Source: the human T2T-CHM13v2.0 reference genome, Homo sapiens
Assembly: GCF_009914755.1 (NCBI RefSeq)
Contig: NC_060930.1
Reading direction: 5' to 3' (one strand)
DNA length: 64,000 bases
The notes below the pieces were generated by a model, which did not search any database, had not been told where the DNA came from, and saw only the letters and a program-made list of their open reading frames with translations. This document shows positions 13,449 to 59,559 of this stretch, in pieces. The first letter of the stretch is position 1; every line of letters starts with the position of its first letter. The translations under genes and the position numbers were made by a program.

Positions 13449-13900
13449 TATGGCAGACATTGTCTGTTGATTCCACATAAGTGATTTCTTTCTTCTCCCT
13501 TGATGAGAGCCTTGATTTACTAAGGACCACGTTTCAGCTACAGGATGAATCTGTTATGGCTAAGCTAGGACCACATTTCAGCTACAGGATGAATCTGTTA
13601 GGGCTAAGCTAGGACCACAATTCAGCTACAGGATGAATCTGTGAGGGCTAAGCTAGGACCACAATTCAGCTACAGGGTGAATCTGTGAGGGCTAAGCTAG
13701 GACCACAATTCAGCTACAGGATGAATCTGTTAGGGCTAAGCTAGGACCACATTTCAGCTACAGGATGAATCTGTTAGGGCTAAGCTAGGCCTGGTTGTCC
13801 TATTCCTCTCAGATAGATGCTTGTTTTTCCAGGCTCTTTTGCATCTAAGGGTACCAGCCAATGAGAGGTAAGTGAAGATTCACTGGGGCTAGGGAGTACT
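13449..13900 (+). mobile_element. MLT1I/J-like MaLR LTR fragment hosting the minisatellite
   Basis: tatggcagacattgtc…ggatgaatc…gctaagc…gccaatgagaggtaagtgaagattcactgggg resembles recalled MLT1I/J. Confidence 0.6.
13523..13789. repeat. Minisatellite/VNTR, 6 x 44 bp
   Basis: Unit aggaccacaWttcagctacaggatgaatctgtKagggctaagct starts at 13523, 13567, 13611, 13655, 13699 and 13743, with no spacers. Confidence 0.98.
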
Positions 13901-30106: not shown

Positions 30107-33100
30107 CCCCCACAGCTCTAGTCATCATGCTGGTACCCATGGACTCAGCATCCAGGCAAGCACCTATGGCCCCAGGCCCCAGGTCAGCCCACAAAGTCCC
30201 AGGCTTTAGACCTGCCCCTTTGCCAGGTTGGCAACCCTGGCATCAGTTACCAGGCTAGCACTCAAAGACACAGGTTCTAAGATCCTGCCCAGTGCCAAGC
30301 CAGTCCCTACAGCCTCACTTTCCATGCCAGTCCTGCAGCTTCATGCTCCAGCATATTCATGGGCCAGGCCTGCTCCAGCAGACCCAGGGGCTAGGTCCAT
30401 CCCAGTAGACCTCACTGCTATGCTTCTTCACACAGAGCTAGGCTCCAGGACCACCCCTTGGACCCAGATACCAGGACAGCACCTGTGGCCCCAAGACCCA
30501 GGCCTCCCTTCATGTACTTAGCCTCTAGGCCAACAGCTGCATATCCGGCCCCCAGGCTCCACACTTGTCCCAGGTTCCACACTTGTCCTAGCAACAGGGC
30601 AGCCCCAGGCCCTTGGCCAGTTCCAGTGTCCCCGGGCTCCAGTTGACACAGGGTCCAGGCCTACCACAGTGCCAGGCCAGTCCCTGTGGACTCAGACTTC
30701 AGCAATGTCCCAGTGAACCTAGAAACCAGGTCCATACCAGCACCTAGCCAGCCCCTAGAAAGCCTCTTCAGACTCAGACTCAAAGACCACCCCTGCACCA
30801 GGTCAGCCTCTATAAACCCAGGCTTCAGGCCAGCTTCTATAGACTCAGGCTCTAGGCCTGTCCTTATGGACATAGGCTCTAGGTCCACCCCCATAGAACC
30901 AATCAATACGTTTATCCCAGTAGATCCAGGCTCCAGGCCTAACCCTATGGACTCAAGCACCAGGCCTGCCCACCTGCTGACCCAGGCACCAGGATAGCCT
31001 GCCCAAGGACTCAAGCAGCAAGTTCACCCATGGACCATGCCAGACCAGCTGCTGAGAATCTCTAGATGAGCTGACTAGTAAAGGACTTCCCCAGACAAAG
31101 CCAGTCCAAAAAGACAGGAATAAGTCCCTACTTCTTCAAATGCATAGAAACTAATACACAGTCACAAGAATTAGAAACAATCAGGGAAACGTGACAGCAT
31201 CAAAGGAATAAAATAAAGCACCAATAACCACCCTCAAAATAAAGATTTGTAAGCTGCCTGACAAAGAATTCAAAATAATTGCTTTAAGAAAGCTCACAAA
31301 AATATAATAACATACAGAGAAACAATTTAACAAAATTAAAGAACAATAAGCAACCAAAATACGAGATGTTGAATTATTAAAAAAATTCTAGAGCTGAAAT
31401 ATGCAATGAACTAAGTTAAAAATACAATAGAGGGTGTCAACAGCGAACTGGTGAAGCAGAAGAAAGCCTGTGAACTTGAAGACAGAGACAGGTTATTTGA
31501 AAATATATAGTCAGACGAAAATATTAAAGTGAATGAAAATGCATAAAGGAAGCTTATGGGATTTATAGGACAGCATCACAAGCAAGTATTCAAATTATTG
31601 GAGTTAAAAAGTAAGAGTAGAACAATAAAGGGCCAGGAAATTCAGTTAAAGAAATAATAACAGAAAATTTTTCAAATCTGGAAAAATATACAAATATCCA
31701 GGTACAGGAAGGTCTCCACTAAGATTCAGCCCAAACAAGATTACAATAAAATATATTATAATCAAATTGTCAAAAATCAAAGATAAAAAGAGGATCCTAA
31801 AAGCAAGAAAAAAAAAAAAAGAAACATATCACACGTAATGAAGTTCCTATAAGGCTAGCAATAGACTTTTTTACATAAACCTTACAGGGCAGAAGAGAGT
31901 GGGATAATATATTCAAAGTGATAACCCAGAGGCAGGGTGTGTGTGTGGGTGGGGGTGCTGGGGGGAAACTGCCAACCAAGAATTCTTTACCCAGCAAATC
32001 TATCCTTTAGAAATGGAGAGAAAAATACTTCCCCAGACAAACAAAGCTGACAGTTTATCACCACCAGACCTATTTTACAAGAAATGCTAATGGGATTTCT
32101 TCAATCTAAATGAAAAGGAGGATGCTAATTAGTAATACAGTCAAGCATAGGAAAGTATAAAATTTGCTGGTAAAAATCAGTACACAGTCAAATTCAGAAT
32201 ACTCTACTACTATAATGGTTCTACGTAAGTCACTTATATCTTTAGTATGAAGTTTCAAAGACTAAATTATAAAAATAATGATAGCTACTATAATTTGTTA
32301 AGGGATACATAATATAAAACATGTAAATTGTGACACCAAAAACATAAAATGCGGAAAGAGGAGTAAAATTATTGAGTTTTTTCATGTGATCAAATTGTCA
32401 GCATAAAAAAGTCTATTATAACTATAAGATATTTTATGTAAGCCTCATGATACAAAGCAAAACACTTTAGTTGATACACAAACCATAAAAAGTAAGGAAT
32501 CAAAGCATAAGCCACTATAGAAAATCATCTAATTACAATTTCTCTCACAGTAAGAGAGAAAGAAAGGAACAACAGATCTACAAAGCAACTAAGAACAATT
32601 AACAAAATGGTACTAATAAATTCTTACCTATCAATTAATTCTTTGAGTGTAAATGGATTCAATTTTCCAATCAAAAGACAAGAATGACTGAATGGCTGAA
32701 AGGGCTTTTTAAAAAAGACCTAACTATACACTGCCTACAATAGACACACTTCACATATATACTAAAAGGGAAGGGAGGGAAAAAGATATTCCATGTAAAT
32801 GCTAACCAAAGGAGAGCAAGGTAGCTATTTATATTAGATAAAATAGAATTTATATTAAAAAAAGTAGAACAAGACAAAGAAAGCCATTATATAAGTTAAA
32901 ATGATTAATTTGATAATAACGGTTGTAAATATACATGTGCCCAACATTGGAACATCTAAAAATATAAAGCAAATATTAATAGATCTAGAGAGAGAATAGA
33001 GAGAGAGAATAGAGAGAGAGACTGTAACACAATAATGGTAGAGGACTTCCATACTCCACTTTCAGCAAAGGATAGATAATCCAGACAGAATATCAATAAG

Positions 33101-42394: not shown

Positions 42395-42619
42395 CTTGCT
42401 CTCTTCTCCTTCAAACACTGACTGGTGAACATTGCACGCAAACAACGAGTTGGGGAGGTCATTGAAGTCAGTGATTGCTTGAAAGGCTTCTTCTGCAAAA
42501 CAACGAGTGACAGCCCAGTCCCTGTCTATGCAGCACAGTAAGAAAAGTCCTCCATCTTCAGGGACGTGTCCCTGCTGCCCTGGGCTCCTCATTCCGATGA
42601 AGTATGATTCTCCCCTCAT
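42395..42619 (-). CDS. RCAN2: RCAN2 first coding exon of the long isoform (codons 1-75, phase-0 donor); full exon 42395-42621
   Basis: Translation MRGESYFIGMRSPGQQGHVPEDGGLFLLCCIDRDWAVTRCFAEEAFQAITDFNDLPNSLFACNVHQSVFEGEESK matches the recalled N-terminus of RCAN2/ZAKI-4 beta, including the RCAN 'DLPxSLFACxVHxxVF' start of the RRM-like domain. The acceptor is ctttgtatccccAG|GA-ATG and the donor is AAG|GTAAGC. 225 coding nt. Confidence 0.96.
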
Positions 42620-42621
42620 TC

Positions 42622-57525: not shown

Positions 57526-57556
57526 GTGCGTGCGCACACACACACACACTCACACA
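57526..57556. repeat. GTGC/(CA)n alternating purine-pyrimidine microsatellite
   Basis: gtgcgtgcgcacacacacacacactcacaca. Confidence 0.95.
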
Positions 57557-57567
57557 GTCCCCCTTAC

Positions 57568-57657
57568 CTCTTACCACCTGCTAGCCCCTACCTCCCCTAG
57601 AGCACCTATCCCAGGACTCGGCGACTTGCACCTGGTGGAATTCTTCCTCGCATTGTT
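57568..57657 (-). other. Candidate cassette/cryptic exon in RCAN2 5'UTR intron (hypothetical)
   Basis: Acceptor tttcctgttctccacccacttccttacAG. Donors GTG|GTAAGA (exon end 57575) and GAG|GTAAGG (exon end 57568). No transcript evidence is available to me. Confidence 0.35.
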
Positions 57658-59559
57658 CTGTAAGGAAGTGGGTGGAGAACAGGAAACCTTGTTCTCACTC
57701 TAAAGGCTACAAAGGGAAAAATAATCTTGCTTGTATTCCAACCTGGAATTCTGAGTATTTTTCCCACAACAACGTAGCTTTTAAGATCTCTCAAATCAAC
57801 ACTCCTGTACTTTACATCAAGTACATCATGCATATAACAGGCTTTTGGGCCAGCTTGGGGATCTGGTCATAATTCATGATGCTTCCTAGGAAAATATATC
57901 CCAAACTCCAAACAATGTAATGGAAACCCATATTCAAAAGGCTACAGATTGTTTCCTGACATAAAAGCACACATATAAATTCTAAAGATGGATGTATTGG
58001 GACTTCCTTTTAATAGCAATGGTCTGTAACATATCGCTATATTTAGGTACCCAACTAAGACTAATAAAGTTGAGCAATAGTCCCTTTGTAGTGCCTGTGT
58101 TAGTTTAATCTCTGTCAAATCTCTCTGTGACTCTCCGCATCCCATTCCCCTGTGCTCAGCCAGGCAACGGAGAGGACAGTGAAGATGTTTAACTCCAGGA
58201 TAAATCCCCCATGATGCTGTCTTTCTCCATCATAATGGAGAAAGACACAATTGCTGTACTGTAATTGTGTAGCTGCCTCTCTTTCCAACCTGCAAATGCA
58301 GATTGTCTACCTTGTTCACATTGTATCTCTAGAACTCAACATTGTACCAAGTATCTAGTACAGACTAAGTAGAATTTCTTGAATGATTGGGGAATCAAAA
58401 CTCAATCTTAGTCTTAGATTCTAAGACATATAAGTCTTGAAAGAAGAAGGAACTTGGAGGACATACCAACTGAGTTAAGCCAATCAGTCTGGGAAAGAGA
58501 GTACAGGAACACTGGAACTTTTTCTGAAGTAACAAGATCTAGGGATTTTCACCCAGAGAAGAGCTACTTAGGTTGGCTTCTGGTAGCTCAGAGCGAGAAA
58601 AAGTCCCTTCATGGGACTAACTCAGAATACCAAGCTTAAGCCCCAAATCTTGCTTTCCAGATAAATGTAGTTTTTAATTTAAGTGACAATGTGATTTTCC
58701 TGGGGTCCACAGCCCTGAACTTTTAGAAGTCATGTTTCAGGACAGTTTGATTAGTTATATGCATGTATGTCTGTCTGTTTCTATAAATCATGTTTAAATG
58801 TACATATACACATTTATGTGGTCTCTTATTAATTTGCAAACTCTTAAAGCATACCAATGCTTTTCTCTCCTTTCTTTTGCCACATACAATATCTTACGGT
58901 ATACTGTTTGATCCTCCATGATAATCAATTATGACTCTACCTTATAGCTTCTTAATATCAAGAATGGCATCACACACATACAGACACATGCACACACAAA
59001 CACACACCCCTATCTCATACCTAGCATATAATAGGCATTCAGTAAATGTCTAGTGAACTGAATTGTTTAACTGGCTGTCTGTGCTATTTTTTTTTGTTCT
59101 CTTTAAACAATAAACTATTACCTATAAATCACCAATAAAATATCAGAATTGTAATAGACTAGAGTCTTTCATTACCATCAGGAACCAAATGTCAATAACA
59201 GCACCATATGAAACACATCAATGGCAGTGCTAGTCCAGTATATGCTCAGTGGGTTTATAACCTCAGTAGTATTTTCATAGAGAAAACTATGCATTATCCA
59301 AAACTAACTTGGGATTTTTTTAACCTGATAATTATTAGATAAATCAATGACATATTTTGACTGTGGATAAGGGAAAGGCTGCTGATTATCATTCAGGTCT
59401 GAATAATATCCATGGATATTAAACCATTTTCCTCTGTCATTTTATTCTTTAGGGGCACTCTTCATATAAACTCTCAGGAAAGGAATGAGGGTACATTTAT
59501 AAAACAAAGACAGTATTTTAACTTTTAAGTCTTACATATAAACTCACATATTTCTCTTT

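What the first reader, a model, noticed from the sequence alone, without database searches (positions are those of the whole stretch)
57526..57690. Candidate cryptic/cassette 5'UTR exon with a uORF, followed immediately by a (UG)n tract (TDP-43/CELF-type layout)
Seen on the RCAN2 sense strand: a ~27-nt pyrimidine-rich tract ending ttacAG (AG at 57659-57658), then an 83- or 90-nt body with three CpGs. Two strong tandem donors follow (GTG|GTAAGA and GAG|GTAAGG, 7 nt apart), and ~11 nt later comes UGUGUGAGUGUGUGUGUGUGUG. The body has an AUG with A at -3 (57653) opening a 15-codon ORF, MRGRIPPGASRRVLG*, that stops inside the exon. Established: TDP-43 represses cryptic exons via adjacent UG repeats, and uORFs lower main-ORF translation. 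Inference: inclusion upstream of the AUG exon would add a uORF and dampen RCAN2 long-isoform output, and microsatellite length could tune it. Weakness: there is no clear consensus branch point.
Basis: partly seen in the sequence, partly recalled or inferred. Interest (0 to 1): 0.72.

Follow-up and report, generated by a model that had tools for sequence, protein, structure and literature searches.

The report
Silenced exon-like decoy in RCAN2
An intron of the human calcineurin-regulator gene RCAN2 holds a 90-base stretch with strong exon boundaries, a short upstream reading frame and a neighbouring UG repeat, but RCAN2 is missing from the lists of TDP-43-controlled cryptic exons that were searched, and the stretch is most likely an ordinary chance decoy, probably kept out of the mRNA by its own silencer motifs.

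Summary
On a simple weight matrix both splice sites score like RCAN2's real coding exon. It is the only unannotated pair that strong in 82 kb of sense strand and sits beside the only long UG tract there. Genome-wide, donor-plus-UG layouts number in the hundreds, about as many as a reversed-pattern control, and 56% of random 90-nt stretches hold an AUG with an in-frame stop. The TDP-43 reading found no support: RCAN2 is absent from a 7,033-row knockdown splicing table although expressed in those neurons, from 421 NMD-unmasked exons (25), from a patient-nuclei gene list (32) and from an 18,113-row ten-dataset table (40). Caveat: transcription of the long isoform in those cells is unverified. Verdict: most likely a chance pseudoexon held silent by these motifs, with TDP-43 at most a back-up. 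Known kind; low interest.

The parts
57660..57686 (-). Polypyrimidine tract, 23 of 27 pyrimidines
57658..57659 (-). Acceptor AG, 10.9 bits (real coding exon 11.3)
57568..57657 (-). Candidate 90-nt pseudoexon; 83-nt form ends at 57575, 66-nt form at 57592
57606..57653 (-). 15-codon uORF including its TAG; A at -3, C at +4
57641..57646 (-). One GAAGAA enhancer hexamer
   Evidence: named as an SR-protein enhancer in PMC10760453
57605..57608 (-). Exonic UAGG no. 1 (overlaps the uORF stop)
57596..57599 (-). Exonic UAGG no. 2, in UAGGG
57587..57590 (-). Exonic UAGG no. 3, in UAGGG (lies in the intron if the 57592 donor is used)
57586..57594 (-). Third donor GAG|GTAGGG, 9.0 bits, with GGGG at intron +4..+7
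57569..57577 (-). Donor GTG|GTAAGA, 8.1 bits; its GGGG lies at +12..+16, outside the silencing window
57562..57570 (-). Donor GAG|GTAAGG, 11.0 bits (real coding exon 11.0)
57559..57563 (-). G5 run at intron +5..+9 of the 57568 donor (5'-splice-site-proximal GGGG)
57535..57556 (-). UG microsatellite (10 UG, one AG interruption); the only such tract on the sense strand in 82 kb
57699..57726 (-). Two upstream alternative acceptors (exon starts 57706, 9.6 bits; 57699, 8.3 bits)
42395..42621 (-). First coding exon of the long isoform (literature exon 3), main AUG at 42619; the downstream splice partner, 15 kb away
   Evidence: annotation supplied with the finding; PMC3896409

Best explanation
The stretch is an unannotated intronic acceptor-donor pair with strong splice sites, three UAGG motifs and a G run directly behind its best donor; it most likely arose by chance beside a UG microsatellite and is likely kept out of RCAN2 mRNA by hnRNP A1-type silencing through those motifs, with TDP-43 on the UG tract probably a back-up at most. 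Shown: the sites, motifs, uORF and spacing. Inferred: hnRNP A1 binding the UAGGs and the G run would block U1 recognition of the 57568 and 57592 donors, so removing TDP-43 alone would not release the exon. Any leak would most likely use the 57575 donor, whose G run lies outside the silencing window. A leaked mRNA would carry a uORF ending 33-40 nt before the main AUG and would probably be translated less or degraded, with no real effect at trace inclusion.
For: Three UAGG (57608, 57599, 57590) and GGGG at +5..+9 meet the Han et al. definition (exon up to 250 nt, at least one exonic UAGG, GGGG in intron bases 3-10). In their reporter three UAGG plus that GGGG gave about 0% inclusion of an otherwise strong exon. 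Of 61 sense and 51 antisense donors with an acceptor partner at 7 bits or more, the full pattern occurs at 2, both in this element. RCAN2 is absent from four TDP-43-loss tables although the layout predicts early, easy detection. Chance origin: donor+UG 199 vs 252 control; donor+GGGG+UG 28 vs 38; a strict pattern fitted to this site finds only this site, against 3 and 2 control matches. Exon trapping shows that nearly a million unannotated, unconserved exons exist and that tens of thousands of strong-site pairs on one chromosome strand are not spliced (PMC10760453). hnRNP A1 can repress the UNC13A cryptic exon without TDP-43 (PMC10057836 abstract).
Against: No binding or splicing data for this site were available, so silencing is inferred from motifs. 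Three UAGG arise in 6.6% of 5,000 dinucleotide shuffles of the exon, and 6 such clusters occur in 82 kb of sense strand, so the motifs may be a by-product of a G-rich patch. Among real exons the unconserved pattern raises confirmed skipping only from 4.6% to 7.9% (18 of 227). The 57575 donor does not meet the GGGG rule. The looser full layout is 1.4-1.7 times its control (87 vs 63, 94 vs 56), which includes real exons and duplicated copies. Absence from knockdown tables means little if those cells mostly use the short brain isoform, whose first exon lies downstream of this intron; this was not checked.
Confidence: 0.5

Rival explanations
1. Passive pseudoexon: never defined as an exon because the branch point is poor, enhancers are few and three acceptors and three donors compete; no dedicated repressor is needed.
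For: Only GTGAG (-38) and TTTAG (-44) resemble a branch point, whereas the real exon has GTAAC at -26. One GAAGAA only. Most strong-site pairs are not spliced in exon trapping.
Against: Both sites score as high as the real exon and the length is typical. Read counts in exon trapping rise with splice-site score.
Confidence: 0.2
2. Normal low-level or tissue-specific 5'UTR cassette exon, perhaps already in another RefSeq or GENCODE model, that trims long-isoform output through the uORF.
For: Top balanced splice-site pair in 82 kb. Known first exons carry no AUG, so this would be the only uORF. Only 1 of 5 RefSeq transcripts was shown in the supplied annotation. hnRNP H opposes A1 on this motif pattern, allowing tissue control.
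Against: The described gene has seven exons, with both 5'UTR exons at the CpG island about 19-20 kb upstream and none here. RCAN2 was not found in the one supplementary file held for a GTEx search for conserved cryptic exons (weak, conserved exons only). An AUG with an in-frame stop is present in 56% of random stretches. Conservation could not be tested.
Confidence: 0.14
3. One reading: a cryptic exon repressed mainly by TDP-43 (or CELF) on the UG tract, included when TDP-43 is lost, in cell types that express the long isoform but were not in the surveyed datasets.
For: UG tract starts at intron +12, the position enriched at TDP-43 cryptic exons. It is the only long sense-strand UG tract in 82 kb and adjoins the strongest unannotated pair. 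Most cryptic exons appear in only one dataset (650 of 3,905 in two or more). RCAN2 RNA dips slightly on knockdown.
Against: 0 RCAN2 rows in four TDP-43-loss tables, two with NMD inhibition, while RCAN2 has baseMean 2746 in the neurons and is flagged cryptic_junction = 0. The tract is short and interrupted. No paper links RCAN2 to a cryptic exon.
Confidence: 0.13

Closest known systems
GRIN1 CI cassette exon and the UAGG/GGGG silencing code (Han et al. 2005, PMC1079783; An and Grabowski 2007, PMC1790952)
   Same: Strong splice sites, several exonic UAGG, GGGG within intron bases 3-10, exon under 250 nt.
   Different: CI is a conserved, coding, demonstrably regulated exon with two UAGG. This one is unannotated, in the 5'UTR region, has three UAGG and three donors, adds a UG tract, and has no evidence of being spliced or conserved.
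TDP-43-repressed cryptic exons (STMN2, UNC13A and the compendia in PMC12667841 and PMC12262666)
   Same: Unannotated intronic exon with strong sites and UG repeats within 50 nt downstream of the donor.
   Different: Members are defined by inclusion on TDP-43 loss; RCAN2 is in none of the four tables searched. The consequence here would be a uORF, not a frameshift, peptide insert or early polyadenylation.
UNC13A cryptic exon, co-repressed by hnRNP L, A1 and A2B1 (PMC10057836)
   Same: TDP-43 site and hnRNP A1-type sites on one cryptic exon.
   Different: [quoted passage not shown] Here the hnRNP A1-type motifs are inferred to dominate.
Chance autonomous exons and pseudoexons (Stepankiw et al. 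2023, PMC10760453)
   Same: Unannotated intronic acceptor-donor pair of exon size.
   Different: Whether this one was trapped is unknown; the full table was not among the readable files.

Membership tests
TDP-43-repressed cryptic exon | Unannotated intronic exon with usable splice sites | tested here: met
   10.9 and 11.0 bits, equal to the real exon; absent from the one transcript annotated; the other four models were not visible
TDP-43-repressed cryptic exon | UG repeat close to a splice site | tested here: met
   UG tract at intron +12 to +33; position as
TDP-43-repressed cryptic exon | Included when TDP-43 is depleted | tested here: inconclusive
   0 RCAN2 rows in four published tables, which leans negative; long-isoform transcription in those cells unverified; raw reads not available
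TDP-43-repressed cryptic exon | TDP-43 CLIP binding at the repeat | not testable with these tools
   No CLIP tracks available
TDP-43-repressed cryptic exon | Not conserved across mammals | not testable with these tools
   No related genomes held
UAGG/GGGG-silenced exon (Han et al. 2005) | Exon of 250 nt or less with at least one exonic UAGG outside the splice sites | tested here: met
   90 nt, three UAGG; definition
UAGG/GGGG-silenced exon (Han et al. 2005) | GGGG within intron bases 3-10 | tested here: met
   Met for donors 57568 (+5..+9) and 57592 (+4..+7); not met for 57575 (+12..+16)
UAGG/GGGG-silenced exon (Han et al. 2005) | Motifs conserved in human and mouse (stringent set) | not testable with these tools
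   No mouse genome held
UAGG/GGGG-silenced exon (Han et al. 2005) | Silencing by hnRNP A1 shown by mutation or knockdown | not testable with these tools
   Needs a minigene; no paper found with RCAN2, alternative splicing and hnRNP on this point (listing only)
Known RCAN2 5'UTR exons 1 and 2 | First exons at the CpG-island promoter | tested here: not met
   Those exons end at about 77513 and 76915; here GC is 50% and CpG observed/expected 0.34
Functional regulatory uORF | AUG-to-stop frame in a mature 5'UTR, translated or conserved | tested here: inconclusive
   Frame present but as common as chance; no evidence that it reaches a mature mRNA

The most novel reading that the evidence does not exclude
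A double-locked uORF exon: hnRNP A1 (UAGG/GGGG) and TDP-43 (UG tract) each suffice to silence it, so single knockdowns miss it, and it opens only when both fall. Because UAGG silencing strengthens with neuronal calcium signalling (PMC1790952 abstract), the exon would tie calcium activity and RNA-binding-protein loss to translation of a calcineurin inhibitor, and would mark a class of cryptic exons invisible to current TDP-43 screens.
Probability: 0.05. Interest if true: 0.6.

Novelty: new member of a known kind. Interest (0 to 1): 0.2.

Why it matters
As a silent pseudoexon it matters little: there are hundreds with this layout. It is a fair latent target, since a variant that removes a UAGG or the G run could switch on a uORF exon and lower the long RCAN2 isoform. 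If the double-lock reading held, it would be a clean 200-nt reporter for cooperation between hnRNP A1 and TDP-43 and a route from their loss to calcineurin signalling.

Tried and rejected
Known exon 1 or 2: rejected, both map to the CpG island near 76.9-77.6 kb. Repeat-derived exon: no other genomic copy of 57560-58400 at E up to 1 and no local match over the exon body; both searches are insensitive to old repeats. Conserved RNA structure: folding z -1.57 and -0.38 against shuffles; pairing that hides the donors appears in the minimum-energy fold but depends on the window, so it was not used. Rfam: one sub-threshold match 1.3 kb away, none on the element. G-quadruplex: G4Hunter peak 1.72 at 57598, top 0.14% of windows, but loops are 5-21 nt; left as a lead. 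Uninformative look-ups: ciclopirox paper, main data file too large; exon-trapping supplements, no full table and my hg38 places were estimates from a recalled exon coordinate; circRCAN2 paper gave no human coordinates; CLCluster paper treats RCAN2 as a regulator, not this exon. The original isoform paper (Cao et al. 2002) is not held. A larger empirical background from the rest of the RCAN2 gene was not obtained, so local counts rest on 82 kb.

Full report
Setting. The window is human chr6 (supplied annotation; G000:C6:46252001-46316000). RCAN2 runs on the minus strand. The gene has seven described exons; exons 1, 2 and 4 are alternative first exons, exons 1 and 2 splice to exon 3 for the long protein, which is abundant in brain, heart, muscle and liver, and exon 4 starts a short brain isoform (PMC3896409, section 14 part 1 and passages read; PMC7468584 passages). 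Upstream sequence shows a CpG island at about 76.0-78.0 kb in window terms, with donors at 77513 and 76915 that I take as the ends of exons 1 and 2; neither stretch holds an ATG. The finding therefore lies in the intron between the 5'UTR exons and the first coding exon (42621-42395), 19 kb from one and 15 kb from the other.

Observation. Every stated feature is at the stated place. I scored splice sites with a weight matrix of recalled, approximate human frequencies; MaxEntScan and SpliceAI were not available. Acceptor 57657 scores 10.9 bits and donor 57568 scores 11.0; the real coding exon scores 11.3 and 11.0. Donor 57575 scores 8.1. Further sites are acceptors at 57706 (9.6) and 57699 (8.3) and a donor at 57592 (9.0). 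The branch point is poor. Inclusion would add the only upstream AUG; the 15-codon frame stops 16, 33 or 40 nt before the main AUG, depending on the donor.

Chance. In 82 kb (window plus 18 kb upstream), 2 pairs 50-250 nt apart reach 10.9/10.9 on the sense strand, the real exon and this one; 0 do on the antisense strand. At 9/9 there are 9 and 3 distinct donors, at 7/7 there are 61 and 51. By summed score this pair ranks fourth of the sense pairs, tied at 21.9. It is the only one with (TG)6 within 100 nt of the donor, and its tract is the only long sense-strand UG tract in the 82 kb. So it is locally outstanding. Genome-wide counts say such places arise at background rates. The tool counts each start once on one strand and many times on the other, so I compare the singly counted columns (my reading of the output): GGTAAG within 20 nt of (TG)7, 199 against 252 for the reversed control; donor plus GGGG plus (TG)6, 28 against 38; acceptor, donor and (TG)6 together, 87 against 63 and 94 against 56 for two length bins, a mild excess that includes real exons and duplicated copies. 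A strict pattern fitted afterwards to this site finds only this site, with 3 and 2 control matches. Of the 12 distinct donor-plus-UG places fetched (the first ones on chromosome 1, three of them paralogous), 3 have an acceptor of 9 bits or more 50-250 nt upstream. The uORF adds nothing: 80% of random 90-nt sense stretches hold an ATG and 56% an ATG with an in-frame stop.

TDP-43 test against published data. Brown et al. 2022 (PMC8891020; 11 of 18 supplementary files searched, main text not read): RCAN2 has baseMean 2746 in i3 neurons, log2FC -0.18 (padj 0.005) on knockdown, ribosome footprints log2FC -0.46 (padj 0.93, baseMean 25), cryptic_junction 0, and no row in the 7,033-row MAJIQ splicing table. 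PMC12262666 (passages, section 7, 3 of 3 files): 421 cryptic exons in 329 genes found with NMD blocked, 0 RCAN2. Ma et al. 2022 (PMC8891019; 16 of 17 held files, one more too large): 0 RCAN2, with STMN2 found as a control. PMC12667841 (passages, section 9, 2 held files; one spreadsheet too large to read): a compendium of 3,905 events in 2,684 genes from ten depletion datasets with three NMD blocks; 0 RCAN2 in the 18,113-row table, STMN2 9 times; the file is unlabelled and may not hold every event. That paper reports that exons with strong sites and UG in the first 50 intron bases respond earliest to TDP-43 loss, so this site should have been easy to see. The gap in this argument: none of these tables shows whether the long isoform, the only one that transcribes this intron, is made in those cells, and most events appear in one dataset only. 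PMC12297563 was uninformative. PMC11632617 (section 15, one file): 0 RCAN2, but the list is limited to 394 conserved exons and I could not confirm that it was in the file. Full-text searches found no report of such an exon: RCAN2 + cryptic exon + TDP-43, 1 review; RCAN2 + TDP-43, 9 papers, 8 listed; a six-term search whose top 30 of 2,532 had no RCAN2 mention; RCAN2 + alternative splicing + hnRNP, 9; RCAN2 + uORF, 1 unrelated. These were read as listings only, except PMC12181778 (passage). Subscription journals and unread supplements may bear on this.

The 3' half of the exon is G-rich (26 G in 50 nt) and carries UAGG at 57608, 57599 and 57590; the intron behind donor 57568 begins GTAAGGGGG. 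Han et al. 2005 (PMC1079783; abstract, passages, section 7) defined a silencing code of exonic UAGG plus GGGG in intron bases 3-10, mediated by hnRNP A1 and opposed by hnRNP H; a third UAGG brought inclusion to about 0% in two cell lines, and GGGG at bases 11-20 had no association with skipping. Donors 57568 and 57592 meet the rule, 57575 does not. Among 112 donors with partners at 7 bits or more on both strands, the full pattern is found at 2, both here. Against over-reading it: 6.6% of 5,000 shuffles of the exon give three UAGG, 6 sense and 7 antisense clusters of three occur in 82 kb, and among real exons the unconserved pattern raises skipping only from 4.6% to 7.9%. One G-rich patch probably produced the donors and the silencers together.

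Mechanism. Most likely (0.5) this is a chance pseudoexon whose best donors are blocked by hnRNP A1-type silencing, so that TDP-43 loss alone does not release it; hnRNP A1 can repress the UNC13A cryptic exon without TDP-43 (PMC10057836, abstract). Rivals: passive non-recognition (0.2), a normal low-level 5'UTR cassette (0.14), and a TDP-43- or CELF-controlled cryptic exon in unsurveyed cells (0.13). That uORFs lower main-frame translation and can trigger NMD is textbook knowledge, recalled. Trace inclusion in deep junction data would not surprise under any of these. Exon trapping shows that unannotated, unconserved exons are very common and that many strong-site pairs are not spliced (PMC10760453; abstract, passages, section 7).

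Comparison and verdict. It looks like a TDP-43 cryptic exon in layout but is not shown to be one: the defining feature, inclusion on TDP-43 loss, was not seen in four tables. It meets the sequence definition of the UAGG/GGGG code, untested in function. Either way it is a new candidate member of a known kind. The boldest reading left open is a double-locked, activity-sensitive uORF exon on a calcineurin inhibitor (UAGG silencing rises with neuronal excitation; PMC1790952, abstract), probability about 0.05. Interest 0.2.

Noticed in passing
window 41984-41918, minus strand: Another strong acceptor-donor pair (9.7 and 12.2 bits, 67 nt) only 0.4 kb downstream of the first coding exon, with (TG)4 within 100 nt of its donor.
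   Followed up: no
window 51942-51726, 45390-45304, 38152-37919, 32761-32628, 8117-7975, minus strand: Other unannotated pairs with summed scores of 21.4-22.5 bits, none with a UG tract.
   Followed up: no
window 57490-57200, minus strand: Just downstream of the UG tract, short stretches match other places in the locus at 81-86%; they look like old MIR and L2 fragments (family labels recalled, no repeat library available) and are not in the masked list supplied.
   Followed up: partly
window 58971-59007: A second, degenerate UG-rich tract on the sense strand 1.3 kb upstream of the candidate exon.
   Followed up: no
window 13523-13789: 44-bp tandem repeat, 6.1 copies, 96% matches, not in the masked list supplied.
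   Followed up: no
window 30168-30858: Cluster of degenerate 18-27 bp GC-rich tandem repeats.
   Followed up: no
window 58218-58270: Short perfect-looking inverted repeat (30 bp, 93% self-complementary).
   Followed up: no
L004, window-scale 78184 and 77702-77513, minus strand: A further consensus donor upstream of the annotated gene start, and a strong acceptor at 77702 in front of exon 1 (11.3 bits), which could make exon 1 an internal exon of a longer transcript.
   Followed up: no
window 42621-42619: The main AUG is 2 nt into the coding exon, so the -3 Kozak base comes from whichever exon is spliced upstream; all candidate donors supply G.
   Followed up: yes
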